DNA from: an uncultured Candidatus Poseidoniales archaeon
Lineage (GTDB): Archaea; Thermoplasmatota; Poseidoniia; Poseidoniales; Poseidoniaceae
DNA length: 64,000 bases
Direction: 5' to 3'
NCBI GenBank assembly: GCA_964613395.1
Contig: CAZTGO010000006.1
Span: forward strand, 3,764-67,763
Shown here: positions 22,456-62,762 of the stretch, one piece after another
Layout: the number at the start of each line of letters is the position of its first letter
Position numbering within the stretch: the stretch's first letter is position 1
Program-made: the position numbers and the translations under genes
The notes under the pieces: model-generated
Seen by the model: only the letters and a program-made list of their open reading frames with translations
Databases searched by the model: none
Told to the model about the DNA's origin: nothing

Positions 22456-25400
22456 CTATTCCTCTTCACTTTGATTCGCATATTCTTGCTCGCCTGAGAA
22501 CTGGGTTGTTTCATCGAAATTCACATGATCAAACCATTTCTCGACATTCCTATTTCTGCGGATAATGACGAGGAAAGCGAGAATGATAATACCCAAAATA
22601 GACAAGCCAGCATTGATCATTCCCGATGATGAATCTTCTTCTTGATACGGTTCAATAGAGGCCATTGGTATAGGAATTCGGGGGGTTTTATTTTCAAGTT
22701 CTATTGTGAGCCCTAAGCGCCCTTCTTTCCAAGCCTCAATCGTCCACGAAATTCTTTCGGTTTGTCCGCTGTCTAATGCTAGATCTGTTGAATTGAGAAT
22801 TCGTCCTTCATCGTTTCGAAGAATAAGTGTTGTGGATCCAGCCAGTAAGCCAGGATTAACGATATCGATATCAATCGACAATTCTTGACCTACCTTTGCT
22901 CGGTATGGATTGACAAGAATATCTTGAAACGCTGGTTCAAACGCAACGAGAGTAATACCAAATCGGTAAGGTTGGTTTTCACTTCCTAACCCAGTCATCT
23001 CATATCCTGCGTTGTCGATGACTTGGAACCAGATTTCAAACGAATCGCCCCGTTGGAACTCAACATCAGAAAATGAAAGATTCACATGCTGCTCAAAGGT
23101 TACTCTCGTCGAACCTGTCGTCTCTCCATCCAAGACAAACATTCGATGCATGCCGTCAACTGGCTTACCTGCACGATACAATTCAACAAACATGAGCGTC
23201 TCATGAATACCGATACCACCATCATCATTGACGACAAAAATGAGTTCGACGTTGTCAAGTGCGTTGCTCCTAAGATTCTCAAAAATTCCTTGAGGTAGTT
23301 CACCTCTTGGAGCATCTTCATCCATGAGTACGTTAAGATGAATTGTACTTGTATTCCATTCATCCATTCCCTCTAATGAAAACGAAAGCGTACCATCATC
23401 TTGAACCAGGACGATGGCCTCCATTACAATTGGAATCGAATACTGACCGATATCTGTCAAATTTACTTGCCCGACTCTTTGTCGCTCGCCATCGGATAGT
23501 ATCCATTTGATTGAACCTGTTGAAGGCAAAAATTCCGCTTGAATGAGAGATGAATTGTAGTACAAGCCTATGGTTGTGTTCACCACATCCCCGGTTGTCA
23601 CAGTCAACGTGTCATCATAGATACCTCCCTGTGAACCTGTTTCATCCTCAATCAAATCAATACGGAGGTCAACTGCACGCTCAGCCATCCATCTATACCG
23701 TTCCATGGTGGAGAAACCTATCGGTAGAGAGGAACCTTCGTCATGTACTGCAAAGGAGGGTAAATACGATTTTTCAGGTAAATTTGCAACCCTCTGCCAA
23801 GCAAGGCGGAACGAAAATTTAACCTCAAATGTCGATGAAGGGGTGCGTTGAACAATTTCAACTCGTGGTTGTTCCTCAAAGCATGACTCATCGAAATTGA
23901 GGTTGTTGTACCGCGGTAAAAAATGAATGTAACAAGACTGGAGGTTTTCACCAGACATAAGATGAAACCGAACACTATCAAGGGATTCAAGTCCATTCCC
24001 CTCTGTGAGTACCGCCGTGAACGAATGAAGGTAGCCGGGTAGCAAATGGCCTCCTTCGATGTCAAATTGAAAATCATCGATCTGTACAATGGTATCGGAT
24101 CTTCGGTGCACTTCAAATGTGGCTGCATCAGATTCTTCACCCTCAAACCCACCAAATTGTATTGAATTTCCGGCTAAATCAAAAGCATAAACAACAAGAC
24201 TCGCTTTACCAATTTGAGCTGTAGGGGCTAATATTTCATTCCAAGAGATCAAAGGCAAATCAATTTCTGCTGAGGTTTGTCCTTTGTTGACCGATACCCA
24301 AAGCGATTGATATTCATCGACATCCATGATGCCATCGTTATTGTCATCATCCCTGTACTCAAACCAAGTGCGGACCTCAATATTTGATGAAAGTCCTTCA
24401 TCGTCTTCGATGAATAAACGCACTGGAATGTTTTGTCCTTCCATCCAGATGTGTCCATCTAAAGACACCCGCCCTGTTGGGTCAAGAACATCAAGTTCGA
24501 CAAAACTCGGTGGTGACGAGTCGTGCAAAAAACGGATTTCTGAAATTGTTTGAGTTCGGTCGAGAGATGTCGTCATCGTTTGACTTTCTGGCCCACATCT
24601 TGAGATATATGCTTGGACTTTGAACCATGTGTTCGAAGGGAGGTCATCTTCATGGCTAGGAGATTCAATATCGATTGAAAAACGTCCATTCTCATCCACT
24701 TCACCGGTCCAATATCTTGCGAAATCGATTGGATTTTCTGGCCACTCAGGTTGACCGCCTGATGCGTTAATAGGTGGAACGGCCTGAAGGCGAATTGTAA
24801 TTTCAGCCTCGTTTGAACCGACCCAAATATTGGATGTTCCATCAAATCGAACCTTCCCTGTGACTTCCATCGATGAAGAAGGTTGAACGTGAAATGGCCA
24901 CATCGGGTCTGTCCAATCTCCAATCGAACGACCTAAAGTATCGGTAATCGAGAGTTCAACAATTTCCAAGTCGTTCTCGATTTGATTGAGTTGTGTGTTC
25001 GTAAATGAATGGAATGGACCCGCATACATGCCGTTCGAATCAGTCGATGTGAGGAAGTAATGCACATCATCAACATCATCGAGTAACCATGAACTCTTGA
25101 ATTTCCATTTGACTTCACAGGCATTCAATTGACAGGATATTATTGACGGCTGCAGTGCTGCTAAACCAAGTCCACTGTGCTGCCTAAATCGTGGTGCTGA
25201 GTCGATTTGGTCAACTTCAACAACTACAAAACTCGAATCGATATTTGAACTTGAACCTAATGAGAGGACAATCGAGGCAATGTCTGGTGCATCATTTGTT
25301 GTTTGTGCGGGGTTCACTCTCGAATGATATGTTGTGATTTCGACTTCTCGATTTGGTAGCCATTGATCGATTGTCGAGGATTCAACGGATTCGATGAACA

Positions 25401-28400
25401 TTGGGAGTTGAACTGTCGTTGCGTTGAGCCGGACACCTGCATTTGATGATTCAATAGCAATAGGAATGCCGATCATCTCATAATTTCCGCCTTGATATGA
25501 TGCGATTTTGGCATCTTCGAGAATTTGGTGGGATAATGATAATGCGAAAGTAGAGTGTTGATGATAGTGGAAAAATCGATTAATTTTGATTGTACCTTCA
25601 GCATTTGACTCGATGCGCATTTCGCATGTTTGCGTTTGAGCATTTGTACTTTCAATGTAGATTTGAGTTATTGTATTAGGACAATGTTGTTGTATTGGAA
25701 TGTAAAATGAATTTCTCCCCGCTGTGACATCGACTTGGTTTGTGGAAACGGTGAGGATTGAATTTGAAGAGAAATTTGTCGTCACATGAACAAATCCATA
25801 CTGATTGTGAGTATTGGGTAATGCACTTAACGGTAGAATGTAAGAAAGCGAAATATTGGACTGTGCAGACACTGGGATATCATCTGTGGCCGAAACCGGT
25901 GAAGTTTGCCCGTCGAGGAAAAACGAAGTCGAAAGTCCAAGACTCGATGGAATAGAATCAGGTGGCCAAGAGAAAAGATGTTCAGAGGTTTTGTCAAATT
26001 CAATTGAAATATTTGTGGGGAAAAGAACACAGGTTGGGGTAATGACTGCCCTTTCGAATGCTTGATTTTGTTCAAATTTCAAACGAAGAGTCAACACTGT
26101 TCTCGCAATGCTTGAGGAATAATTATACTGACGCTCCCCATTTTTATCTTGGTTATTCCACCAAGATGAATTGAACATTTCATCATCTGTCCACGATGCA
26201 TTCCACCCGTAGGTGACAAGATTTAGATGTGAAAATGGACAAACAGAAAACTCATTGACTCGCAATTCTTGTTGTTGCAATGATACAAATCCATCGTTCG
26301 AAAAGGTTCCCGAAAGTTGTGATAATTCTGCGGATTGTATGAAATGTTGAGGCCCTAGATGCAAACTGTGAATGGTTGGAGTGAGGTACTCATCTTCAGA
26401 TTCAAAATGTATCTGGACCTGAACTGATGGATACTCCACTGGGTCAATGAGAACCGGAAGAGGCAATTTTCGTCCTACGTAATCTGGAATCTGTTGTCCT
26501 TGATGGTCGAGAAGTGTGACTGAGATATCCGTTCCTGTTGGGATGTCATACCAGCCATCGAGGAGACCATAGCCATAATGTTGATCTGGCGAAATAGATG
26601 TTGAAGTCCATTGGCCAGTTTGCTGAAATACTTCAACCTCAAAATCAATGTCATCAATATACCATCCATCGTACTCAAGATATTGGTCGGAGAAAAACGA
26701 AAACCTTGCTCGTATGTGTTGACCTGAAATATTGTTCATTTCGAATGATTTTGGAATAAATTGTTGTGGTCGATTCTGAATGCAATTGCCTCCTTGGACA
26801 TTAGAACCATCGATGATACCGAGCATGTAATGAGGTGAATAGGGATTCACAGTAGAAATTTGGTCATGGAAATCCGGTACTGAATCCGGAATGTACCACC
26901 ATGATGCCCCATCATCTGTTGAAATCGACACCGTTCCACCATCCCAATTCGCCTCAGCGCACATCCACGAATTGAATTGCAGTCGTGCTGAAGCATTGTC
27001 CGGAACTACAAATTCTGGACTGATAAGATGGGTGTAGAGATTATTTGTGTATCGAGTAACGAGATTGATTGCAGCTCCATTTGAACCAGAAGAAAAGGCA
27101 CCGGGGCCGTATCCAGATGTATTTGCCGTAAGGCCAATCTCCCAACCAGTTTTGCCATTTGATAGAATTGACCAGCCTGCAGGTGCAACAACCGGGTTTT
27201 CGAAAGAGAATTGACGTGATGTTGGTCCGTTGTTTCCCAGTGAATTTGTCCATTGCCATTCGTTGATAAGTGTGGTCGAGGTGTTTTTCCAGCCACTTGG
27301 GTCTCCAATCGTTTGACTAGGCTGGCTCGAGAAGTTACTAATAACTCTTCGAACTGGAGATGGTGAGTTTCTACCTGCCCAAATGGCAACATCATCAATG
27401 ACCATGCCTTCCCAATCTTCTGAAAACGAACCCCCAAAATTCTTCACAGCATCTGTATTGACTTGGAAGGAGAATAGGATTTGGCTGGCGTTCTGGTGGC
27501 TGGACAAATTTGTTGGTAAGGCATATCGAACCGGAATCCAGCCGTAGGATTCCATTCTATACGTCACACCTTGGTGAGCAAAACCCCATCCCGGTAGACC
27601 CGGTATCGGAGAGATGACTTGCCAATTCGAACCATTATCTACACTGTACCATGTCGACAACTCATCGCTTGATGCTCCTTCAATATCCCAATTTGCCCAA
27701 AATTCAAATTCGAGTTGCCCGGATAATCCTGAAAGGTCTGCTTCAAGATACATGATTCCGTACGCATTTGGTGCATAATCCCCCGATAAATTTCCGTGAA
27801 TCCATGCACCTCTTGCATCACCTTCGTTTTCCAATGAAATATTGTCGATGAACCAACCGCCTCGTTGATCAGTTTGTGTTGAGGTTTCAATACAAAATCG
27901 CAATTGAAAATCGGTCGATGTGGCTACAAGGACATCGTCGAGGAGGATTGAATGCCGAAGCCATTGATTTGATTCCCCTGAATTTGCTGTCTGCGGCGCG
28001 TAAACAAGTCCTGTTGTTGAATTTTGATACCCCTCTTGTGGTGAGACGACTTGCCATGTTGATACGTTTCGAAATTCTATCCAGGCCGCATCAGAATCGA
28101 GAAGAGACGTCCATGAATCAAATGAAAATGAATAATTTCGAAACATGTTTGGTGTTGATAGCGTTGGAGATTGAATGCATGTGTACATGGATGACGACAG
28201 ATTTCCAGAAGAGGTCGTTGAGAGAGAATACATACCATCCGTTCCTTGTGAAGGATGCGCCATATCGGTCGACAATGTGTTGTTTGCAAGATCGACAACT
28301 TCCCAAATCGTGTGATTCTGTCCTATGGAAAACCAGCCTTCCGGCTGCAACGTCAAGGATTCGAAATCTGTTGATTCGCCTCGAATTTCTTGTACTGCTA

Positions 28401-28764
28401 ACCTCAATTCCCCAGTTGAATTCGAAACTTCAACATCGTTAAATGTTCCATTCCACGAAGTATTTGCTGCTAAACCAAATGTTGTCGTATCCATTGAGTA
28501 AAGTTCGGGAATTGGTTCGACATTCATTGTACCGTTCATAAACGTGTGATTCGCAGGTATGGTGATAAGAGTTGAATCGAGCACATCGACTGAAGATGTC
28601 GTCGTGTTTGTGTTGTATGTGGCAGAGGTTTGGTGTGGTGAGGTCTTTTCATTTGAGAATGAAATGAGTGCATTCGAATACACAGAAAGACACATGAGAA
28701 GAACCAAGAAGAGAGCATTCAATCTCAAGGATTTTGAAGGATTTTTGTGGCTGCATGTCCTCAA
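22456..28764 (-). CDS. Giant (2102 aa) membrane-anchored surface protein with repeated jelly-roll (MAM/immune-inhibitor-A-like) domains and C-terminal CARDB/Ig domain
   Basis: Signal peptide and repeated GW[FY]IDN/DD-type domain ends. CARDB-like VGQELSIDIDIVNPG...WTIEAWKEG. C-terminal TM followed by RRNR. Confidence 0.8.
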   Translation of the reverse strand: MRTCSHKNPSKSLRLNALFLVLLMCLSVYSNALISFSNEKTSPHQTSATYNTNTTTSSVDVLDSTLITIPANHTFMNGTMNVEPIPELYSMDTTTFGLAANTSWNGTFNDVEVSNSTGELRLAVQEIRGESTDFESLTLQPEGWFSIGQNHTIWEVVDLANNTLSTDMAHPSQGTDGMYSLSTTSSGNLSSSMYTCIQSPTLSTPNMFRNYSFSFDSWTSLLDSDAAWIEFRNVSTWQVVSPQEGYQNSTTGLVYAPQTANSGESNQWLRHSILLDDVLVATSTDFQLRFCIETSTQTDQRGGWFIDNISLENEGDARGAWIHGNLSGDYAPNAYGIMYLEADLSGLSGQLEFEFWANWDIEGASSDELSTWYSVDNGSNWQVISPIPGLPGWGFAHQGVTYRMESYGWIPVRYALPTNLSSHQNASQILFSFQVNTDAVKNFGGSFSEDWEGMVIDDVAIWAGRNSPSPVRRVISNFSSQPSQTIGDPSGWKNTSTTLINEWQWTNSLGNNGPTSRQFSFENPVVAPAGWSILSNGKTGWEIGLTANTSGYGPGAFSSGSNGAAINLVTRYTNNLYTHLISPEFVVPDNASARLQFNSWMCAEANWDGGTVSISTDDGASWWYIPDSVPDFHDQISTVNPYSPHYMLGIIDGSNVQGGNCIQNRPQQFIPKSFEMNNISGQHIRARFSFFSDQYLEYDGWYIDDIDFEVEVFQQTGQWTSTSISPDQHYGYGLLDGWYDIPTGTDISVTLLDHQGQQIPDYVGRKLPLPVLIDPVEYPSVQVQIHFESEDEYLTPTIHSLHLGPQHFIQSAELSQLSGTFSNDGFVSLQQQELRVNEFSVCPFSHLNLVTYGWNASWTDDEMFNSSWWNNQDKNGERQYNYSSSIARTVLTLRLKFEQNQAFERAVITPTCVLFPTNISIEFDKTSEHLFSWPPDSIPSSLGLSTSFFLDGQTSPVSATDDIPVSAQSNISLSYILPLSALPNTHNQYGFVHVTTNFSSNSILTVSTNQVDVTAGRNSFYIPIQQHCPNTITQIYIESTNAQTQTCEMRIESNAEGTIKINRFFHYHQHSTFALSLSHQILEDAKIASYQGGNYEMIGIPIAIESSNAGVRLNATTVQLPMFIESVESSTIDQWLPNREVEITTYHSRVNPAQTTNDAPDIASIVLSLGSSSNIDSSFVVVEVDQIDSAPRFRQHSGLGLAALQPSIISCQLNACEVKWKFKSSWLLDDVDDVHYFLTSTDSNGMYAGPFHSFTNTQLNQIENDLEIVELSITDTLGRSIGDWTDPMWPFHVQPSSSMEVTGKVRFDGTSNIWVGSNEAEITIRLQAVPPINASGGQPEWPENPIDFARYWTGEVDENGRFSIDIESPSHEDDLPSNTWFKVQAYISRCGPESQTMTTSLDRTQTISEIRFLHDSSPPSFVELDVLDPTGRVSLDGHIWMEGQNIPVRLFIEDDEGLSSNIEVRTWFEYRDDDNNDGIMDVDEYQSLWVSVNKGQTSAEIDLPLISWNEILAPTAQIGKASLVVYAFDLAGNSIQFGGFEGEESDAATFEVHRRSDTIVQIDDFQFDIEGGHLLPGYLHSFTAVLTEGNGLESLDSVRFHLMSGENLQSCYIHFLPRYNNLNFDESCFEEQPRVEIVQRTPSSTFEVKFSFRLAWQRVANLPEKSYLPSFAVHDEGSSLPIGFSTMERYRWMAERAVDLRIDLIEDETGSQGGIYDDTLTVTTGDVVNTTIGLYYNSSLIQAEFLPSTGSIKWILSDGERQRVGQVNLTDIGQYSIPIVMEAIVLVQDDGTLSFSLEGMDEWNTSTIHLNVLMDEDAPRGELPQGIFENLRSNALDNVELIFVVNDDGGIGIHETLMFVELYRAGKPVDGMHRMFVLDGETTGSTRVTFEQHVNLSFSDVEFQRGDSFEIWFQVIDNAGYEMTGLGSENQPYRFGITLVAFEPAFQDILVNPYRAKVGQELSIDIDIVNPGLLAGSTTLILRNDEGRILNSTDLALDSGQTERISWTIEAWKEGRLGLTIELENKTPRIPIPMASIEPYQEEDSSSGMINAGLSILGIIILAFLVIIRRNRNVEKWFDHVNFDETTQFSGEQEYANQSEEE

Positions 28765-46618: not shown

Positions 46619-48151
46619 TCATTTTTTACGACTTTCCCTTGGCTTTTCTAATTGATAACTCCAAAACATGAGTCCGAGGACGAGTACAAGAAGTGTTTGA
46701 GTTAACGAGGCACTAGGTAAGCCAGGTCCTTCTCCAACACCTAGCGTGTTTTCTTTCTCCATCAACTCTCGAACATCCTTGACAAAATCTTCCGGAATCC
46801 AATGCTCACCAGCCCACATGATGCGAGGCACGCGTTCTTGGTCGAGCAAATAGGTTGCACTCGAGTGACCCACAGTGTAATTCTTGGTTGCGTCCTCCAC
46901 ACAGAGTAACATCGTTGAGTCGGGCCAACTGTAACCAGCATCACACATGCAGTGAAGGGATTGGTTTTCTCCCATCAACCACCCATGCCCGCCACATGCT
47001 TGTTCATCGTCTCCGAACGAGTATGGGGAAGGGATGTCACTCAAGTTGGTGGTCGAAGGATGCCAAGCAATTTTTGTTGTTGCGTTGACATCATCCATTC
47101 CAACCTGAGACTCTTCCCAGACCGAGTTTGTTTGGTTCCATGTGGACAATTGCCACCACCATGTTTCATTCTCACTCGGTTTTTTATCGATTGATGAGAG
47201 GTAATTGCCCCATGATGAAAAGACAATATCAGCATCGTATTGATTGTGAGTGAAAGCGGATGCTGATGCTGCAAAGCCATTCCAACTTGAGATGCCGGTC
47301 ATCATTGTTGTTTGGTTTTCGTACATCACAGTCATACTAGCAACGTTCTGTGGGTCGGGAGAATTTAGATTGCTTGTATTTGCATTGGAGGGTGCCCACG
47401 CAAAATGAGAGATATCAAGAACATCAATGGAAGAAATTCCATCTTCTGCGACAAGCCATGAATCAAATTTTTCATTCCAGTACAATACTTCCCATGACCA
47501 GTTCGCATTGGATTCGATGTTGTTGATGCTCGTCATCATTTGACCGTCTTCGTTTTGGCTCGTTTCAATATCGATTCCGAGTTGTCGTGCAAAGATTTGA
47601 GTCCATGTCCGTCCTTCAAAACTCAGCATGAGTGGGATAAATGTGCCATTATCTGACTCGATGAGGAGAGATTGTGAACGCAATTCTTCTTTGAATTCTT
47701 CTTCTTGGTTTTGCTCATACACATTTTCGACAACGATGCCAAAGGTTGACCAAATAGGGAGCAATTGCTCATATGTTCCTGTAAGATGAGGCCAAGAAGC
47801 TTGGTGTATTTGTGAATACGTTTCCAGTTCCTCGGGACCATCATGCAGTGGATCGGTTGTGATTGAGACAAATGTAATATGATTCTTTTCTTCATCGGTA
47901 AGAAGGGTTTCAACAGATTTCATCGATTGTGTAATTGTTGGACACACATCAGGGCATCTTGTAAAAATGAATGAAAGAACGATGATATCGTTTGAATCTC
48001 TGTCAAAATTATATTCTGAGCCGTTCTGTGTTGTCAGTGTAAAATTTTGAATTGGTTGCCTGCTCAACTGATATCCAATGAAAGCCGCTTGTGTGGTAGA
48101 AGTACACAGAAAAAGGCACGCTACGATAACAAGCAAGGTTTTGCGAAGCAT
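46619..48151 (-). CDS. SCO1/SenC copper chaperone with ~280-aa internal insertion
   Basis: FIFTRCPDVCP, SITTDPLHD, WPHLTG and distal YTVGHSSATYLLD. Signal peptide and C-terminal TM. Confidence 0.88.
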   Translation of the reverse strand: MLRKTLLVIVACLFLCTSTTQAAFIGYQLSRQPIQNFTLTTQNGSEYNFDRDSNDIIVLSFIFTRCPDVCPTITQSMKSVETLLTDEEKNHITFVSITTDPLHDGPEELETYSQIHQASWPHLTGTYEQLLPIWSTFGIVVENVYEQNQEEEFKEELRSQSLLIESDNGTFIPLMLSFEGRTWTQIFARQLGIDIETSQNEDGQMMTSINNIESNANWSWEVLYWNEKFDSWLVAEDGISSIDVLDISHFAWAPSNANTSNLNSPDPQNVASMTVMYENQTTMMTGISSWNGFAASASAFTHNQYDADIVFSSWGNYLSSIDKKPSENETWWWQLSTWNQTNSVWEESQVGMDDVNATTKIAWHPSTTNLSDIPSPYSFGDDEQACGGHGWLMGENQSLHCMCDAGYSWPDSTMLLCVEDATKNYTVGHSSATYLLDQERVPRIMWAGEHWIPEDFVKDVRELMEKENTLGVGEGPGLPSASLTQTLLVLVLGLMFWSYQLEKPRESRKK

Positions 48152-48160
48152 GTACGAACC

Positions 48161-48508
48161 TCATCGCTGGCCAGCATAATCCCAGTTTGGCGTGCACCAA
48201 TCTGGAAGGCCTGTGACTGCTCCAGGATTGGATAGTCCGATTCCCCAAAGCATCAACAAGACGAAGATGACTGGAAAAATTGCAGTACGGAAGTAAATCA
48301 CAGGGTCACCTCGAAGGTGCATGAAATAAGCTGCAATTCCGTATCCTTTGACAATACCAACGCCGATGAGAATTGCCCACACAATCATGAGGTCCAACTC
48401 GATGTACACTGCACCAACTTCGAGGATGGTAAATACCATGAGAACAATAAAGTTCCAGAAGTAGATGTCTTTGCCCATAATTAATTTGTGATCTCCCATT
48501 TTTTTCAC
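48161..48508 (-). CDS. Cytochrome c oxidase subunit IV (prokaryotic CtaF/CyoD-like)
   Basis: Three TM helices with LMVFTILE, IVKGYGIAAYFMHL. Position directly after coxIII. Confidence 0.85.
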   Translation of the reverse strand: MKKMGDHKLIMGKDIYFWNFIVLMVFTILEVGAVYIELDLMIVWAILIGVGIVKGYGIAAYFMHLRGDPVIYFRTAIFPVIFVLLMLWGIGLSNPGAVTGLPDWCTPNWDYAGQR

Positions 48509-48509
48509 C

Positions 48510-49919
48510 TCAATACAAATAGAACGCTGGGAAAATGGCTACCCAAGCCAAATCCACAAAGTGCCAATACAAACCAAAGTATTCGATACCTTGACCGTTT
48601 TCTTCATCAAAACCAACGGTATCTGCTTTGAATATCAAGTAAAGCATCACTAGCAATCCAATGAAAACGTGCAATCCGTGTGCACCAGTTGCAATGTAAA
48701 AGATAGAACCACCTTGTGTACCGATATCGAACCCTTCAGCAACAAGATGGCTCCATTCAATGAGTTTCAGCACGATGAACATGGAACCGAGAAGGAATGT
48801 CGCAAGGAGATAATTGCGTACAGCAATCTTCTGTGTTGGCATGATTTTACCCATGAATCCTTTTGGAGCTTCCCAGTTGTGTGCTTTCGCTGTCTTGAGT
48901 GCTAGGACGATGGTGTAAGAAGAAATGATGAGAGCAAATGTGTTAATTGCACCTGGAAGCAATGTCATGAAGTCGCCTTGGCCGCCGATAACAGTACCGT
49001 CTTCGAGGACCATGCTCCCACCGTTTGGTCTGAGGAAATCGGATGCTGTGAGCATATCAACTTGATACGAAACCGCACCGTTTTCACCGACGACTTGACA
49101 AGAGGGATTTTCCTCTTGTACTTGCCAAAATGTACACCACTCTGTTCTCATTCGTAGATAGGACGAGAAGAATGTGGCGAACACCATAACTTCGGACATA
49201 ATGAAAACCCAAAGCCCTGCTTTTCGGATATGTTGCCCTTCAAATGGATGCGATGTTGCAATTTGCTCGCCGTGGCCGATAAACGGAAGGTCTTCTCTCC
49301 ACCAATTTGCAACACCGATGGCAACGATGACCAAACCGAGCAAACTGAGCGTCATATCACCCACATTACCGCCTGCATCGGTCATCAGCATTGCCTTCGC
49401 AGCATCTGCGAACATTGGGAATCCCATTAAGAAGAGGAGTATACCAAATGAGAAGATAATCGGGGATGATGATCCGTGGTGCTCGTGACCATATTCGTCT
49501 TCATGCCCATGGCCATCACCATGGTCGCCGGATGGCTGAATTGAATTCATGAAGCCACCAAGTCCGATAAAGAGTGCATACACTACACACATGAGGAGAA
49601 TGGTAATACCTGCGGTTCTCCATGTCAAGTACGAAAGATGAGCTTCTACATAGTGATGGTGTGCATCTTCTTCCACCTTGTGCAATTGATCTAATTCACT
49701 TTGCGTTGCGGTTCCTGAATCTGATGCCGCTTTGTAGTCTTCTTTTGCAACCTCGTAAGCATGGTGTGCATCTTCATATTCATGGTGTTTTAGATTCGCA
49801 ACACCAACGCCCATGACCCCGTAAGCGAGGACGCCAACGATGAGGAAAATTGCACCAAATAGGACTGCTCTCATCCAAATGGTATTTTCGATATCTGCAC
49901 CATGTCCGTGGGCACTCAT
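48510..49919 (-). CDS. Cytochrome c oxidase subunit III with His-rich N-terminal extension
   Basis: GLWVFIMSEVMVFATFFSSY, NTFALIISS, FYIATGAHGLHVFIG, GLYWHFVDLAWVAIFPAFY. Confidence 0.92.
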   Translation of the reverse strand: MSAHGHGADIENTIWMRAVLFGAIFLIVGVLAYGVMGVGVANLKHHEYEDAHHAYEVAKEDYKAASDSGTATQSELDQLHKVEEDAHHHYVEAHLSYLTWRTAGITILLMCVVYALFIGLGGFMNSIQPSGDHGDGHGHEDEYGHEHHGSSSPIIFSFGILLFLMGFPMFADAAKAMLMTDAGGNVGDMTLSLLGLVIVAIGVANWWREDLPFIGHGEQIATSHPFEGQHIRKAGLWVFIMSEVMVFATFFSSYLRMRTEWCTFWQVQEENPSCQVVGENGAVSYQVDMLTASDFLRPNGGSMVLEDGTVIGGQGDFMTLLPGAINTFALIISSYTIVLALKTAKAHNWEAPKGFMGKIMPTQKIAVRNYLLATFLLGSMFIVLKLIEWSHLVAEGFDIGTQGGSIFYIATGAHGLHVFIGLLVMLYLIFKADTVGFDEENGQGIEYFGLYWHFVDLAWVAIFPAFYLY

Positions 49920-52255
49920 GAGCTCGCCTCCTTTGGTTCGCCTTTCCAGAGTTTTTCTTTGATCGAAGGCGTATCGTTATGATGACCATAGTGCTCATTC
50001 ATGTCGTTTTGTGTAGGGATGTCATGGAATGATGGCGTTGGTGGAGGTGATGTCGTCGACCATTCGAGGGACCAACCGCCCCATGGGTCTTTGCCGACAG
50101 GTTCGCCTCGCTTTCCAGAGTAGATGATGTTCCACACGAGAAGGAGTTGGCTGAGGCCAAAGATGAAGGCGAAGATTGACACTGCCATATTATACTCAGC
50201 GAATCCAGATTCAACGGTGTAGGTATGTGTTCTTCTTGGCATACCCATGATGCCAAGTGCGTGCATTGGCCAGAATGCGGCATTGTAAGCCGAGAAGCCA
50301 ATGAGGAAATGCCAGAGACCAAGTGTTTCGTTGAGTTTTCGGCCGGTCACCTTTGGGTACCAGTAGTATAGACCAGAGAACAGTGCAAACACAGTTCCAC
50401 CGATAAACACGTAGTGGAAGTGAGCCACGACGAAATACGAATCATGGAAATGGATATCAAGACCTGCTACTGGGAAAAACATTCCAGAAATTCCACCGAG
50501 TGTAAACGTGACGAGGAAGCCAAGAGACCACAATGTGTGGGTCTTCATGACAAGGGAGCCACCCCAAAGCGTTGCGAGCCAGTTGAAGATTTTGGCTCCA
50601 GTTGGAATAGCCACAAGCATGGTTGTAATCATGAACGCTGCACGCCAAAATGGGTCCATACCCGATGTGAGCATGTGGTGCCCCCACACGATGAAGCCAA
50701 CAACACCGATACCGGCCATAGCGAAGACCATCGATTTGTACCCAAAGATCGACCTTCGAGCAGATGTTGCAAGAACTTCAGATACGATACCGAAGGCAGG
50801 CACAATCACAACGTATACCTCGGGATGGCCAAAGAACCAGAACAGGTGCTGGAACAACAACGGGTCCCCTCCCGCAACGAAGAATGTCGTTCCTATCGTG
50901 TGGTCAAACAGCAAGAAAAAGACACCGATGACAAGTGCTGGTAGAGACATGTACAACATGAATACGCTGATGAAAACCGACCATGTAAACAGAGGCATTC
51001 GCATCCATGTGACGCCAGGGGCTCGCATCGTGAACACAGTTGTAATGAAATTCACACCGCTTAGCGTAGAAGATGCACCGAGCATGGCCATGCCAGAGAT
51101 GAACGAAATCGTACCAAGGTTTGCTCCATATCCCGATAAACTTTCACCCAAGTTTGCTTCTGAAAGCGAAGCATATGGCGGGTACATGACCCATGTGATG
51201 TCAGCACCTTGACCAGACCAAATGCCCGAGAAAATGAGTGGTGCTGAAAACACGAGAAGCCAAAGTCCCATGGCGTTGATTCGAGGGAAGGCGAGGTCTT
51301 TTGCACCAATTTGCAACGGTAACACGTAATTCATGAAACCAGCAATCATTGGCATGGCCCCTAGGAAAATCATTGTCGTTCCGTGGAGTGTAAAGAACGA
51401 GTTGTATTCGTCGTAAGTGAGGAAATCGTTTTCTGGGAGAGCGAGTTGTATTCTAAACAATAGAGCAAGCAATCCTCCGACCAGGAAGAAAAAGAATCCG
51501 AAGAGGAAATACATCACGCCGACTTCTTTGTGATCAGTTGTGGTAAGCCAAGGTTTGAGGAATGACCAGAATTTGTCCATTGTAAAGGTGTCAGGTGAAC
51601 GTCGGTAAAACACCCAAAGGATGCCGAGGAAAATTAGTCCAACAGCGAGACCGATGGCTGTGATGAAGATGACGAGGGCAGATGCACTCGGACCGGTTGA
51701 TTCAGCGTTAACACCTGGAATGGAAATCACGACTTTATTCCAGTAGTCTCCCGATGACCCTCCATTTCCAGTGTTGCCGTTCACAGCGTTACCGTAGACT
51801 GTAAGTTCAACTGTTTTGGTATCATCTGCTGGTGCGGTGAGTTCAAAGTCCCACGACCTGAATTTGTTCCCATCAACCGTGTGTGTCAATCCGCCTTCAT
51901 ATTCATAGGAGAGCGTTTCATCAACACCGGTGACGGTTGTGCCACTCGAAGCAATGATTCTGAATCCACCGTAAGGAACAGTTCTTGAGCCATCGGTAAC
52001 GATGCCATCACCATCAAGTGTCATCACATCGTTTTGAATGGTCACAGTGAACGCATAGGTTTCACTCGCGTTGAACGATTCAGGCAATCCCGAAACTGTG
52101 ACTTTGGTGTCATCTGAAGGGGTTAGTCCGTGACAAAAACAACCTTGGCTGTTTGCTACTTCACCGATACCATTAGGTGCAGCTGAAAATTGAGGCATTG
52201 CAAAAATTGAGGCGAGGAAAGCGAGCGTAACCAGAACAAGGATACTCTTTCTCAT
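49916..52255 (-). CDS. Cytochrome c oxidase subunit I (A1 type) fused to N-terminal Reeler-like domain
   Basis: TTTDHK, TLHGTTMIF, DLAFPRIN (D channel), WFFGHPEVY, WGHHM, PTGAK (K channel), VAHFHYV. Confidence 0.96.
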   Translation of the reverse strand: MRKSILVLVTLAFLASIFAMPQFSAAPNGIGEVANSQGCFCHGLTPSDDTKVTVSGLPESFNASETYAFTVTIQNDVMTLDGDGIVTDGSRTVPYGGFRIIASSGTTVTGVDETLSYEYEGGLTHTVDGNKFRSWDFELTAPADDTKTVELTVYGNAVNGNTGNGGSSGDYWNKVVISIPGVNAESTGPSASALVIFITAIGLAVGLIFLGILWVFYRRSPDTFTMDKFWSFLKPWLTTTDHKEVGVMYFLFGFFFFLVGGLLALLFRIQLALPENDFLTYDEYNSFFTLHGTTMIFLGAMPMIAGFMNYVLPLQIGAKDLAFPRINAMGLWLLVFSAPLIFSGIWSGQGADITWVMYPPYASLSEANLGESLSGYGANLGTISFISGMAMLGASSTLSGVNFITTVFTMRAPGVTWMRMPLFTWSVFISVFMLYMSLPALVIGVFFLLFDHTIGTTFFVAGGDPLLFQHLFWFFGHPEVYVVIVPAFGIVSEVLATSARRSIFGYKSMVFAMAGIGVVGFIVWGHHMLTSGMDPFWRAAFMITTMLVAIPTGAKIFNWLATLWGGSLVMKTHTLWSLGFLVTFTLGGISGMFFPVAGLDIHFHDSYFVVAHFHYVFIGGTVFALFSGLYYWYPKVTGRKLNETLGLWHFLIGFSAYNAAFWPMHALGIMGMPRRTHTYTVESGFAEYNMAVSIFAFIFGLSQLLLVWNIIYSGKRGEPVGKDPWGGWSLEWSTTSPPPTPSFHDIPTQNDMNEHYGHHNDTPSIKEKLWKGEPKEASS

Positions 52256-53241
52256 TAGTAACCACCTCCTGATGCCTCTGCTTTGACTCCAGTATCAACA
52301 TCGCAGAAGTCATTTGAACCGACGCCAGTCCATTCCCGTGCCACGACTTTGACAACTCCACCCATCATAGAATGCTGATTACCGCAGTATTCAGCACAAC
52401 GAATTGGAAATTCTCCTGCTCGGTCAGGCGTCGCCATCATGACCGTGCCGCTTTCTAAACCTGGAACGAGATCTTCCTTGACACCCCACTCAGGTAGCCA
52501 GAAGGAGTGTTGAACGCCTACATAGTTTGGGTTGGAGTCGTCTGAAGGCTTTGAGTGCATAGTGAACACTGTATTTTCGTCACACGGCACAATCATAGGT
52601 TCATTAGATGCAGACGAGAACATGTGGCCTTCTGGGATGTGCATCCATGTGTGGAGGACATCGCCTGCTTCGTTTGTAACTTCGACGATAGCGAAGGTTC
52701 CCTCATCGAAAGGTTGGTTGATCGTGAGGAGGCCAGTCATCTGGTCGAGTTCGTATTGATTTTCATCCGAGCCGACGATGACTGTAGCGTTCACGCCTGC
52801 GGATTGAGAGGCATCGACAGTGAGCGAGCCTTGCCAATTGACATCAACACCGGTTGACCTGGAATCGTCTTCCCAGGTAAGTTCATCGGTGTAGTGGTAT
52901 TCCCAGAACCATTGTTTGCCGACGATTTCCATATCATTGGTCTCTGCTGGGTCTTCGGGAATCTTCCAAACCTCTGTGTTAGAAGCCAAAGCAAGAACGA
53001 TGAGCCAAGCGACGATGATCGTAGGAAGGACATAGAACATAACTTCGATACGTGTATTGTGTCGATCGACGGGGAATGAACCGACCTCGATGTGGTCGAC
53101 TTGAGTGGTGTCAGGCTCGACACCGTCACGATATCTCAAGATGGCTAAAAAGAGCCAACCAAACGTAAAGATACCCACGATAATAGACCAAAACATGAAC
53201 TTCTCGTATAGAACTGCGAAGACTGTGTCTCGTGCAACCAT
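52255..53241 (-). CDS. Cytochrome c oxidase subunit II with insertion
   Basis: Two TMs, GKQWFWEY, VQHSFWLP, CAEYCGNQHSMM (complete CuA ligands). No CxxCH cytochrome c domain. ATG 53241 chosen as start. Confidence 0.94.
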   Translation of the reverse strand: MVARDTVFAVLYEKFMFWSIIVGIFTFGWLFLAILRYRDGVEPDTTQVDHIEVGSFPVDRHNTRIEVMFYVLPTIIVAWLIVLALASNTEVWKIPEDPAETNDMEIVGKQWFWEYHYTDELTWEDDSRSTGVDVNWQGSLTVDASQSAGVNATVIVGSDENQYELDQMTGLLTINQPFDEGTFAIVEVTNEAGDVLHTWMHIPEGHMFSSASNEPMIVPCDENTVFTMHSKPSDDSNPNYVGVQHSFWLPEWGVKEDLVPGLESGTVMMATPDRAGEFPIRCAEYCGNQHSMMGGVVKVVAREWTGVGSNDFCDVDTGVKAEASGGGY

Positions 53242-53476
53242 GCACTCACCAACCGAACCGCCGTGGCGGATGGACTTAAGCATTTGTTGATTGGGGTTTG
53301 GGAGAGGCCATTCTTTGCGATTGGAGTAATGTCTCGCCGTCATTCGATTTTCACCATCAATGAAAGATTACGATTTTGAAAAATTTCTTCTTGTTTTCTT
53401 TTGCGAAAAAATACCAGCGAACGACCGTCTTAACTGATGAAAGGACATTATTTGTAAATGTCAATCCTCTACTCAA

Positions 53477-61562: not shown

Positions 61563-62762
61563 TTATTCTTCATCATCTGATAGGATCGTGGATGTTTCAT
61601 CCAATACCGACAAATGGTGTTCGTCATCTCGCTCTTCAAGAGCTCTCATTGATTGAGCACGGTGATAGACTTCCCGCAACGTTTGGTCTGATATTTCGAG
61701 ATATACACGGGTGGTTGCGATGGTTGCATGGCCCATTAATCGCTGAATTGAAACTAAATCTGCACCTCGTTCGAGGAGGCCTGTTGCAAAATTGTGCCGG
61801 AGAACGTGTGGTGTTAGTCTGCCTTGAGGAAGGCCAATTTCTGCTGAGAGTGCATCCATAATCCTTTGAATCGCCCTTGAATTTAGTCGCCGTCCGAATC
61901 GGTTCACAACTAAAGAATCTTGACTTTTTGATGCAAACGTCTCCCGGATTGGCAACCATTTTTGAATTGCTGACAAGGTTCGTTGTGTAAAAAGAACCAA
62001 GCGATCTTTGTCTCCCTTTCCGCCAATGACGCGCGCTGATGAATCTTCGATATCGATGTCTGTAACATTGAGTGCACATACCTCACTTACCCTAAGGCCT
62101 GTGTCGAGCATGAGGGTGACAATGAGGTCGGCATTTGGATTTTCACTGTCCCTCGCCGCTTCGATAACATCGCTTAATTCGCGTTTTGTGAGTGTTCTCG
62201 GTAACCGCTTTCCAACTCGAGAACGCAAAAGATGGTCTGGCCAACGATGACCAAGCCACTTGATGAGATGTCGCGCAGCTGCTAGGCGTGCATTGAATGT
62301 TGAGGGTTTTAAACTGTGAAGCGAATGAACCCAAACATCGATTCGTCCATTCATGGGTTCAAGACGATCAACGAGTTCACCAAGGCTCATGGATTCATAT
62401 TCTTGTTGAGTCAAGATTTTTTCGCCTGGTAAAACTGATTCGACGAGTGAACGGAGGCCATAAAAATAAGATTTTTGAGTGTTTTCTGATTTGTTTTCGG
62501 TCCGAAGTTGCTGCTCGTAACATTGTATCCAAGGGAGATGTTGAATGTGCAACAACCTCGCAGGAAGTTGGCGTGGCTCATTATCGAGTCGGGATTGTTT
62601 TGCATCTTGACTATCGCGATGTTGGCTCGGCCTTCGAGCCATTGGTTGAGGCATTCGCGCGTCTTTCTCGTTCATTGGCGTCACCGCCTGCTCACCGACG
62701 TGAGCGTGCATCCCATGTCCATTGGACATGTGGCAGTACACTTCACTCCTTAATGAAACCAT
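61563..62762 (-). CDS. xerA: XerA-like tyrosine recombinase (start uncertain)
   Basis: TGLRVSE, GKGDKDR, TPHVLRHNFATGLLERGADL..IQRLMGHATIATTRVY. All R-K-H-R-H-Y residues are present. Confidence 0.9.
   Translation of the reverse strand: MVSLRSEVYCHMSNGHGMHAHVGEQAVTPMNEKDARMPQPMARRPSQHRDSQDAKQSRLDNEPRQLPARLLHIQHLPWIQCYEQQLRTENKSENTQKSYFYGLRSLVESVLPGEKILTQQEYESMSLGELVDRLEPMNGRIDVWVHSLHSLKPSTFNARLAAARHLIKWLGHRWPDHLLRSRVGKRLPRTLTKRELSDVIEAARDSENPNADLIVTLMLDTGLRVSEVCALNVTDIDIEDSSARVIGGKGDKDRLVLFTQRTLSAIQKWLPIRETFASKSQDSLVVNRFGRRLNSRAIQRIMDALSAEIGLPQGRLTPHVLRHNFATGLLERGADLVSIQRLMGHATIATTRVYLEISDQTLREVYHRAQSMRALEERDDEHHLSVLDETSTILSDDEE

What the first reader, a model, noticed from the sequence alone, without database searches (positions are those of the whole stretch)
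51605..52255. Reeler-like (choice-of-anchor V) CxCH ectodomain fused to CoxI
Seen: signal peptide, ~155-aa beta domain (GCFCH, GGLTH, WDFELTAP, GNAVNGN..GD; 51713-52177), one extra TM ending YRR, then the CoxI core. This topology places the domain on the same face as CuA. Known: Reeler domains accompany heme-based ferric reductases in eukaryotes, and CxxCH-like motifs bind heme c. Inference: a covalently linked electron donor or Cu-loading domain, analogous to the cytochrome c of caa3 but on subunit I.
Basis: partly seen in the sequence, partly recalled or inferred. Interest (0 to 1): 0.75.

Follow-up and report, generated by a model that had tools for sequence, protein, structure and literature searches.

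The report
Reeler-like CxCH domain fused to CoxI
In Marine Group II archaea, cytochrome oxidase subunit I carries an outward-facing Reeler-type domain with a Cys-x-Cys-His site, and a sister copy sits where cytochrome c1 should be in their Rieske/cytochrome b operon, so this family is probably the missing electron carrier of their respiratory chain.

Summary
ORF 49916..52255(-) encodes 779 aa: signal peptide, a 150-aa beta-sandwich (NCBIfam choice-of-anchor V, 68 bits against a cut-off of 42), one extra TM helix ending in YRR, then an intact A-type CoxI. The fusion is a single ORF in 70 of 78 Poseidoniales species genomes; the remaining eight run off a contig end, are interrupted by runs of N, or (one) carry frameshifts. 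The fold and a family profile both point to the Reeler domain.

The domain has exactly two Cys (C39, C41) and two His (H42, H125), all conserved across the family. The spacing between the Cys varies among relatives: CxCH in archaea, canonical CXXCH or CX4CH in most Bacteroidota members. The "CH" pair never changes, which is how heme-c sites behave.

The key new result is about paralogues. One heads the Poseidoniales Rieske/cytochrome b operon, in the position of cytochrome c1 or f. Another is a separate gene just after coxI in a distant lineage. One relative is fused to a plastocyanin-type domain.

My best reading is a built-in electron-entry domain feeding CuA, probably with heme c. The cofactor is not demonstrated. 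Copper loading is less likely. The finding appears undescribed.

The parts
52178..52255 (-). Signal peptide (aa 1 to about 26; MRKSILVLVTLAFLASIFAMPQFSAA). It has no twin-arginine motif.
   Evidence: Translation and predicted helix aa 2-18. The cleavage site is inferred from the small residues (S-A-A) just before the conserved P27.
51734..52192 (-). Reeler-like beta-sandwich ectodomain (NCBIfam NF041895, choice-of-anchor V), aa 22-174.
   Evidence: E 7e-19, 68.3 bits against a cut-off of 42. AF2 pLDDT 83 and 89. F-spondin Reeler is the top Foldseek match; the family profile hits only Spondin-1 Reeler in the PDB.
52130..52144 (-). G-C39-F-C41-H42, the candidate cofactor-attachment motif (the family pattern is C-Xn-C-H).
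   Evidence: The two Cys and the His are invariant or nearly so. They are the only Cys in the domain and one of its only two His.
51881..51895 (-). GGLT-H125, the second conserved His and a candidate second ligand.
   Evidence: T124 and H125 are invariant in A1, and the His is at least 90% conserved in the family-wide alignment A2. In the alignment to F-spondin Reeler it lies 4 residues after a Cys. From memory of the published structure, that Cys is disulfide-bonded to the N-terminal segment.
51599..51685 (-). Extra transmembrane helix (aa 191-219) ending in YRR. It returns the chain to the cytoplasmic side before CoxI helix I.
   Evidence: helix 191-219; sequence ALVIFITAIGLAVGLIFLGILWVFYRR.
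49916..51598 (-). A-type heme-copper oxidase subunit I core (aa 220-779), with TLHG, HPEVY, GHHM and HFHY.
   Evidence: Pfam COX1, E 6e-142; TIGR02891, 631 bits.
52255..53343 (-). coxII, with the CuA motif CAEYCGNQHSMM, the WFWEY entry tryptophan and an insertion of about 100 aa. Its stop codon overlaps the coxI start.
48510..49919 (-). coxIII with a His-rich N-terminal extension. Its start overlaps the coxI stop.
48161..48508 (-). coxIV (prokaryotic subunit IV).
46619..48151 (-). Sco1/SenC copper chaperone fused to a large C-terminal extension.
   Evidence: The same architecture occurs in L004.

Best explanation
The N-terminal 220 residues of this CoxI form an outward-facing, membrane-tethered Reeler-fold domain. 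I propose that it carries a redox cofactor at a site built from C39-x-C41-H42 and H125, and that it serves as the oxidase's built-in electron-entry module.

Poseidoniales lack cytochrome c1. In its place, a C-terminally anchored paralogue of the same domain is encoded at the head of their Rieske/cytochrome b operon, and a third, free membrane-anchored paralogue also exists. The proposed path runs from the Rieske cluster to the operon paralogue, possibly through the free paralogue, then to the CoxI-fused domain, CuA, heme a and heme a3-CuB.

The most likely cofactor is a c-type heme held by a shortened CXCH version of the CXXCH motif, with H42 as the proximal ligand and H125 or the mature N-terminus as the distal ligand.

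Shown here: the fusion and its conservation, the fold, the conserved residues, the operon contexts, and CXXCH in relatives. Inferred: the topology, cofactor binding, cofactor identity, and the direction and partners of electron transfer.
For: 1. The fusion is real and conserved. It is one ORF in 70 of 78 species-representative Poseidoniales loci; the remaining eight run off a contig end, are interrupted by N runs, or (L075) are frameshifted. A second, separate clade of CoxI fusions also exists (P0124, P0214, P0374).
2. The domain contains exactly two Cys and two His, and all four are conserved. Of 234 relatives, 212 have CxCH. Of the 22 without it, most are fragments lacking the N-terminus; two full-length members carry CMPCH or CX8CH at that position, and one reads GCTCR.
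3. At the same alignment position, Bacteroidota members with a T9SS tail have CXXCH (37), CX4CH (18), CX1CH (6) and CX5-6CH (3). A Myxococcaceae member has CX5CH. The Cys-His pair never varies, as in heme-c motifs.
4. A paralogue of 267-274 aa is the first gene of a conserved operon: CxCH protein, a 150-aa membrane protein, a Tat-signal Rieske protein, cytochrome b6-like, and an Fe-S/CCG protein. This holds in three divergent Poseidoniales lineages. Tully 2019 (PMC6336850) reports that MGII have cytochrome b and Rieske but no canonical bc1.
5. In L009 and L010, a 206-aa member is a separate gene whose start overlaps the coxI stop in a COX3-COX2-COX1 operon.
6. One relative joins this domain to a plastocyanin/azurin domain (PF00127, E 2e-14).
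7. CoxII keeps CuA and the entry tryptophan and has no cytochrome c domain of its own.
Against: No cofactor has been shown. CX1CH is not an established heme-attachment motif. I found no experimental precedent for it; it appears only as a search pattern in one software pipeline.

Thermoplasmata are reported to lack cytochromes c and the Ccm system almost entirely (Kletzin 2015, PMC4429474). I found no CcmC/F- or CcsA-type WWD motif and no genuine CXXCH protein in about 1.2 Mb around Poseidoniales cox loci. This covers only a small part of each genome.

The Cys spacing ranges from 1 to 8 residues and the longer loops are Gly-rich. That would also suit a metal-binding loop. No Met is conserved, so a heme would be bis-His or His/amine ligated.

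Bacterial and some archaeal members have no respiratory neighbours. Many MGII copies stand alone next to unrelated genes.
Confidence: 0.5

Rival explanations
1. The role is the same (an electron relay into CuA), but the cofactor is copper. C39, C41, H42 and H125 would form a thiolate/imidazole copper centre, either mononuclear or a CuA-like binuclear site, instead of binding heme.
For: Two Cys and two His are the only candidate ligands. The domain is exported with a Sec-type signal and lies outside the cell, where copper can be inserted, and a Sco chaperone is in the operon. This lineage reportedly lacks cytochrome c maturation. Variable Gly-rich Cys-Cys loops suit a metal site. The Rieske-operon paralogue carries an extra His/Met-rich stretch (HHMGAGMRAHW) before its anchor. 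A relative is fused to a cupredoxin.
Against: Adjacent Cys-His residues rarely bind the same metal ion, yet that adjacency is the one invariant feature. Most Bacteroidota members have an exact CXXCH. The fold is not a cupredoxin, and no known copper-site family matches.
Confidence: 0.18
2. The domain is a tethered metallochaperone that loads copper into CuA or CuB during oxidase assembly. This would make it a functional analogue of Cox11 (which has a CFCF motif on an Ig-like fold), PCuAC or Sco.
For: The CFCH motif resembles the CFCF of Cox11 (from memory). The domain is a beta-sandwich on the P side, covalently attached to the subunit that holds CuB. It shares an operon with Sco.
Against: A paralogue heads the Rieske/cytochrome b operon, which has no copper site. 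Free-standing and secreted bacterial homologues exist. The N-domain gives no hit to Cox11, PCuAC or SCO models. A permanent 1:1 fusion is unusual for an assembly factor.
Confidence: 0.1
3. The domain is a non-redox surface module. The Cys/His cluster would only staple the N-terminal segment to the sandwich through Zn or a disulfide, taking the place of the Reeler disulfide. The domain would then serve for docking, supercomplex formation, attachment to the S-layer, or shielding.
For: Eukaryotic Reeler domains are extracellular matrix or adhesion modules. 'Choice-of-anchor' families are generic surface proteins. Many members have no respiratory context or are joined to CARDB, PKD or Big domains. 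C2H2 is a classical Zn ligand set.
Against: The domain associates independently with two respiratory complexes in three different gene arrangements. It occupies the cytochrome c1 slot in a chain that otherwise lacks a Rieske acceptor. A CxC disulfide is strained, yet CxC is the commonest form. The strict Cys-His adjacency is unexplained by this reading.
Confidence: 0.2

Closest known systems
Cytochrome c domain of caa3-type oxidases (e.g. Thermus, Bacillus)
   Same: A covalently attached P-side electron-entry domain that feeds CuA. It removes the need for a diffusible donor at the last step.
   Different: In caa3 oxidases the domain is a class I alpha-helical cytochrome c with CXXCH, fused to the C-terminus of subunit II. 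Here it is a Reeler-type beta-sandwich with CXCH, fused to the N-terminus of subunit I through an extra TM helix. CoxII has no cytochrome c domain.
Cytochrome c1 / cytochrome f of Rieske/cytochrome b complexes
   Same: The 267-274-aa paralogue has the same layout (signal peptide, ectodomain, C-terminal TM anchor) and the same gene position next to Rieske and cytochrome b. Like cytochrome f, it is mainly beta-sandwich with the Cys...Cys-His motif close to the mature N-terminus.
   Different: There is no sequence similarity. The Foldseek hit to cytochrome f was not reproduced with the domain-only model. The motif is CXCH, not CXXCH.
Reeler domain (Pfam PF02014: reelin, F-spondin, FRRS1/SDR2 ferric reductase)
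   Same: It is the best structural match (TM 0.5-0.63), the only PDB sequence match of the family profile, and is hit by 21 of 42 relatives. In FRRS1 the Reeler domain accompanies DOMON and cytochrome b561 redox domains (from memory).
   Different: The window protein itself does not reach the Pfam model. No cofactor is known for eukaryotic Reeler domains. F-spondin has a Cys near where this family has its Cys/His residues; from memory, that Cys forms a disulfide.
NCBIfam NF041895 choice-of-anchor V and NF041894 MXAN_6652 family
   Same: The domain is a true member of NF041895. Its relatives carry T9SS, MXYO-CTERM, PGF-CTERM-like or plain TM anchors.
   Different: This family is a naming model only, with no assigned function. 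No paper in the held library mentions it. Fusion to CoxI and linkage to the Rieske operon are not part of its definition.
Sulfolobus CbsA (cytochrome b558/566) and haloarchaeal halocyanin
   Same: Both are archaeal solutions to the absence of cytochrome c1 and c: an extracellular, membrane-anchored redox protein encoded with or near Rieske/cytochrome b genes (from memory).
   Different: The fold and the cofactor sites are unrelated. Neither is fused to oxidase subunit I.
Cox11 / PCuAC / Sco copper chaperones
   Same: They are P-side, membrane-tethered beta-rich domains with Cys/His or Cys/Cys copper ligands, encoded in cox operons.
   Different: No HMM match. Those chaperones are not encoded in Rieske/cytochrome b operons and are not permanently fused to the oxidase.

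Membership tests
NCBIfam NF041895 (choice-of-anchor V domain) | HMM score above the curated cut-off (42 bits). | tested here: met
   68.3 bits, E 7e-19, aa 22-174 covering model positions 8-146 of 150.
Reeler domain (Pfam PF02014) | The protein itself matches the Pfam HMM. | tested here: not met
   the window domain gives no Reeler hit even at E up to 10.
Reeler domain (Pfam PF02014) | Homology seen through relatives or a family profile. | tested here: met
   21 of 42 family members hit PF02014, best E 1e-5; the family profile hits only Spondin-1 Reeler chains in the PDB (E 4e-4 to 6e-4).
Reeler domain (Pfam PF02014) | Reeler-type beta-sandwich fold. | tested here: met
   the top five Foldseek PDB matches are F-spondin Reeler domains (E 2e-5, TM 0.47-0.63). 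The model has pLDDT 89.
c-type cytochrome | CXXCH (or an accepted variant) heme-attachment motif. | tested here: not met
   The window has C-F-C-H, with one residue between the Cys. Relatives have CXXCH, CX4CH or CX5CH at the same position.
c-type cytochrome | Covalently bound heme. | not testable with these tools
   This needs heme staining, a pyridine hemochrome spectrum or mass spectrometry of the protein.
c-type cytochrome | A maturation system (Ccm, CcsBA or HCCS) encoded in the genome. | tested here: inconclusive
   No WWD-motif protein was found in the window, in L001-L004, or in 1.19 Mb around 80 Poseidoniales cox loci. Whole genomes could not be scanned. The literature says Thermoplasmata mostly lack Ccm.
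A-type heme-copper oxidase subunit I | COX1 fold with the heme a, heme a3 and CuB ligands and the HPEVY motif. | tested here: met
   E 6e-142; TIGR02891, 631 bits; TLHG, HPEVY, GHHM, HFHY.
caa3-type oxidase | Class I cytochrome c domain fused to the C-terminus of subunit II. | tested here: not met
   CoxII shows only the COX2/CuA domain; the only CXXCH in an ORF of 80 aa or more is at 35940(+), far from coxII.
Copper chaperones (Cox11, PCuAC, Sco) | Match to the family HMM. | tested here: not met
   Pfam scan of aa 1-222 at E up to 10 returned only two chance-level hits, neither a chaperone. Sco is a separate gene in the operon.
Rieske-type [2Fe-2S] domain | Two ligand boxes (CxH and CxxH, usually four Cys) and export by the Tat pathway. 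| tested here: not met
   The domain has only two Cys and two His. The signal is MRKS..., without a twin arginine, and the domain is fused to a polytopic protein inserted through Sec.

The most novel reading that the evidence does not exclude
This family would be a new class of c-type cytochrome: a Reeler-fold beta-sandwich whose heme is attached through a one-residue CXCH motif. It would be matured in archaea that lack the known Ccm and Ccs systems. It would supply the entire cytochrome c1 to cytochrome c to oxidase-entry relay of Marine Group II archaea, as three paralogues. By extension, eukaryotic Reeler domains such as that of the FRRS1 ferric reductase would descend from a domain that binds a redox cofactor.
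Probability: 0.3. Interest if true: 0.9.

Novelty: new variant of a known kind. Interest (0 to 1): 0.78.

Why it matters
Poseidoniales (Marine Group II) are the most abundant archaea in surface ocean water, and none has been cultured. Published genome surveys note that they have a Rieske protein, cytochrome b and an aa3-type oxidase, but no cytochrome c1 (PMC6336850). How electrons pass between the two complexes has therefore been open.

This finding names a concrete candidate. One domain family occurs in the c1 position of the Rieske/cytochrome b operon, as a free membrane-anchored protein, and fused to oxidase subunit I. The idea can be tested directly by expressing a 160-residue domain.

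If the cofactor is heme, it adds a new cytochrome fold and a new attachment motif, and raises the question of how that heme is attached. If it is copper, it adds a new kind of copper centre. Either result would also give the first biochemical function to the prokaryotic branch of the Reeler superfamily.

Tried and rejected
1. Cytochrome f similarity. The domain-only model did not reproduce it within the top 50, so I do not use it as evidence.
2. Rieske-like [2Fe-2S] centre. CxCH is also Rieske box II. I rejected this because the domain has only two Cys, a Sec-type signal, and is fused to a polytopic membrane protein.
3. Apparent splits of the fusion in L003 and L004. In P0038 the C-terminus loses the TM sequence shared by relatives, and L004 carries COX1 as three consecutive ORFs. 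I read both as frameshifts in the 'pilon'-named contigs; this was not checked by translating the other frames. L041 and L044 are interrupted by runs of N, and L075 is frameshifted.
4. Copper chaperone HMMs give no hit.
5. Repeated CXXCH hits near cox loci turned out to be antisense ORFs or DCC-type CxxC proteins.
6. The contexts of Bacteroidota, Myxococcaceae and non-MGII archaeal members were uninformative.
A six-sequence alignment worked.
8. Literature searches for CXCH with heme, Reeler with heme and archaea, 'choice-of-anchor V', and MGII with Rieske found no description of this domain.
9. I could not obtain model coordinates, so the distances among C39, C41, H42 and H125, and from the domain to CuA, were not measured.
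Full report
**What is in the window**

The finding lies on the minus strand. ORF 49916..52255(-) encodes a 779-aa protein. Pfam finds a complete COX1 domain at aa 245-698 (E 6e-142), and TIGR02891 scores 631 bits. The heme a, heme a3 and CuB ligand motifs TLHG, HPEVY, GHHM and HFHY are all present.

About 220 residues precede this core. They comprise a hydrophobic signal sequence, a domain that matches NCBIfam NF041895 'choice-of-anchor V' at aa 22-174 (E 7e-19, 68.3 bits, cut-off 42), and a helix at aa 191-219 ending in WVFYRR.

The gene sits in an operon of coxII, this gene, coxIII, coxIV and a Sco fusion. The coxII-coxI and coxI-coxIII junctions overlap. One extra TM helix with the positive charges after it puts the domain outside the cell, on the CuA side. 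This topology is inferred from sequence.

**Whose genome it is, and whether the fusion is real**

All close relatives come from Candidatus Poseidoniales, the Marine Group II archaea. One locus (L013, JAYQSB010000017.1) is 99% identical over the domain.

A scan of one genome per species returned 80 loci. In 70 of the 78 where the domain ORF could be delimited, the CxCH domain and the CoxI HPEVY motif lie in one ORF of 751-804 aa, or in a shorter ORF cut off by the contig end. The other eight are the same ORF running off a contig end before HPEVY, two interrupted by runs of N (L041, L044), and one with frameshifts (L075).

Two apparent splits on 'pilon'-named contigs (L003, L004) also look like frameshifts. 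The C-terminus of P0038 loses the TM sequence shared by relatives, and L004 carries COX1 as three consecutive ORFs. I did not check this by translating the other frames.

A second, more distant group of CoxI fusions also exists (P0124, P0214, P0374). It falls in a different part of a rough neighbour-joining tree.

**What the domain is**

AlphaFold2 gives a confident beta-sandwich, with pLDDT 89 and pTM 0.86 for the domain alone. Its best PDB matches are the F-spondin Reeler domains (E 2e-5, TM 0.47-0.63). A profile of 42 diverse family members finds only those same Reeler chains among 177,635 PDB sequences (E 4e-4). Of the 42 members, 21 hit Pfam Reeler, with a best E of 1e-5, although the window protein itself does not.

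'Reeler-like' is therefore supported as distant homology.

**The conserved site**

The domain has exactly two Cys (39 and 41), two His (42 and 125) and one Met.
- In 40 Poseidoniales sequences, C39, C41, T124 and H125 are invariant, and H42 is at least 90% conserved.
- In the family-wide alignment, C41 and H42 are invariant, and C39 and H125 are at least 90% conserved.
- Of 234 relatives, 212 have C-x-C-H. Most of the 22 without it are fragments lacking the N-terminus; two full-length members carry CMPCH or CX8CH instead, and one reads GCTCR. Of the 212, 197 have exactly two Cys in the domain.

Where the motif differs, only the spacing changes.
- P0183 has CMPCH and P0206 has CX8CH.
- A Myxococcaceae member has CX5CH.
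- Among Bacteroidota members with a T9SS tail, the counts are CXXCH 37, CX4CH 18, CX1CH 6 and CX5-6CH 3.

The Cys-His pair is never separated. That is the behaviour of heme-c attachment motifs, in which the second Cys and the proximal His are adjacent. It is awkward for a single metal ion.

In the alignment to F-spondin, H125 lies four residues after a Cys. From memory of the published structure, that Cys is disulfide-bonded to the N-terminal segment. This suggests that the CxCH segment and H125 are neighbours in space. I could not measure this because model coordinates are not returned.

**Context elsewhere, the decisive evidence**

1. A 267-274-aa paralogue consists of a signal peptide, the domain, a His/Met-rich stretch and a C-terminal TM helix. 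It is the first gene of a conserved operon. The following genes are a 150-aa membrane protein, a Rieske protein with a Tat signal and the CTHLCC and CICHSS boxes, a cytochrome b6-like protein (PF00033, E 4e-42), and a large Fe-S/CCG protein. This arrangement holds in three divergent lineages (L005/L006, L093, L094). One cluster member is annotated as Thalassarchaeaceae, i.e. MGIIb. This is the slot and the topology of cytochrome c1 or f. Tully et al. noted that MGII have cytochrome b and Rieske but lack a canonical bc1 complex (PMC6336850).
2. In L009 and L010, a 206-aa member is a separate gene whose start overlaps the stop of an unfused coxI in a COX3-COX2-COX1 operon.
3. One relative combines the domain with three CARDB repeats and a plastocyanin/azurin domain.
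4. Free-standing MGII copies of about 200 aa, and the bacterial members, have uninformative neighbours.

**Interpretation**

A domain that appears in the c1 slot of the quinol-oxidising complex, inside cox operons, and fused to oxidase subunit I is most simply an electron carrier. The fused copy would then be the oxidase's built-in entry point to CuA. It would work like the cytochrome c domain of caa3 oxidases, but on subunit I and with a different fold. CoxII keeps CuA and the entry tryptophan and has no cytochrome domain of its own.

I favour heme c as the cofactor because of the invariant Cys-His pair and the canonical CXXCH in bacterial relatives. This is inference only. CX1CH is not an established attachment motif. 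Thermoplasmata are reported to lack Ccm (PMC4429474). I found no WWD-type lyase or genuine CXXCH protein near the cox loci, although whole genomes could not be scanned.

A thiolate/imidazole copper centre is the main alternative for the same role. A copper-loading chaperone is hard to reconcile with the Rieske-operon paralogue and finds no HMM support. A purely structural surface module with a Zn or disulfide staple remains possible, but it leaves the threefold respiratory linkage unexplained.

**Novelty**

NCBI's naming model recognises the domain but assigns it no function. The held literature contains no mention of it, of a Reeler domain with heme in archaea, or of an N-terminal ectodomain on CoxI in MGII.

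I rate it as a new variant of a known kind: an electron-carrier module attached to an oxidase. There is a substantial chance that it represents a new class of redox protein.

Noticed in passing
window 48510-49919 (-): CoxIII is 469 aa, and the best Pfam COX3 stretch covers only aa 366-468. It has a long N-terminal extension rich in His/acidic runs (HGHGAD, HHEYEDAHHAYE, DAHHHYVEAH, GDHGDGHGHEDEYGHEHHG). These look like metal-binding tracts.
   Followed up: no
window 46619-48151 (-): The Sco1/SenC domain (aa 35-153) is fused to an extension of about 330 aa rich in Trp and Asn, followed by a C-terminal TM helix. A 515-aa form also occurs in L004.
   Followed up: no
window 52255-53343 (-): CoxII has an insertion of about 100 aa between its TM helices and the CuA cupredoxin domain. 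TIGR02866 model positions 7-195 span aa 43-337 of the protein.
   Followed up: no
L005 11003-13786; L093 8682-11504; L094 5890-9703: The Poseidoniales Rieske/cytochrome b operon ends in a 927-1344-aa protein. It combines a weak cytochrome b6f subunit-IV-like N-terminus with 4Fe-4S and CCG (HdrD-like) domains. This is an unusual composition for a complex III.
   Followed up: partly
L005 8001-8810 (P0314) and relatives P0318, P0307, P0302: The Rieske-operon paralogue has a conserved His/Met-rich stretch (e.g. DLHHMGAGMRAHWLG) immediately before its TM anchor. The CoxI-fused and free copies lack it.
   Followed up: no
P0171 (representative protein, no locus): A single protein combines the Reeler-CxCH domain, three CARDB repeats, a plastocyanin/azurin domain and a PGF-CTERM-like tail.
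   Followed up: partly
L085 and L086: One MAG (isolate SP272) carries two separate loci with a fused 759-aa CoxI. This suggests either two oxidase operons or a binning duplicate.
   Followed up: no
window 61563-62762 (-) and 22456-28764 (-): The window also holds a phage-type integrase gene (PF00589, E 6e-37) near its end and a 2102-aa ORF elsewhere.
   Followed up: no
L064, L083, L084: Three contigs carrying the Poseidoniales-type fused coxI are filed under bacterial MAG names (Salipiger, Salinimicrobium, Rhodobiaceae). This is most likely a binning error.
   Followed up: no
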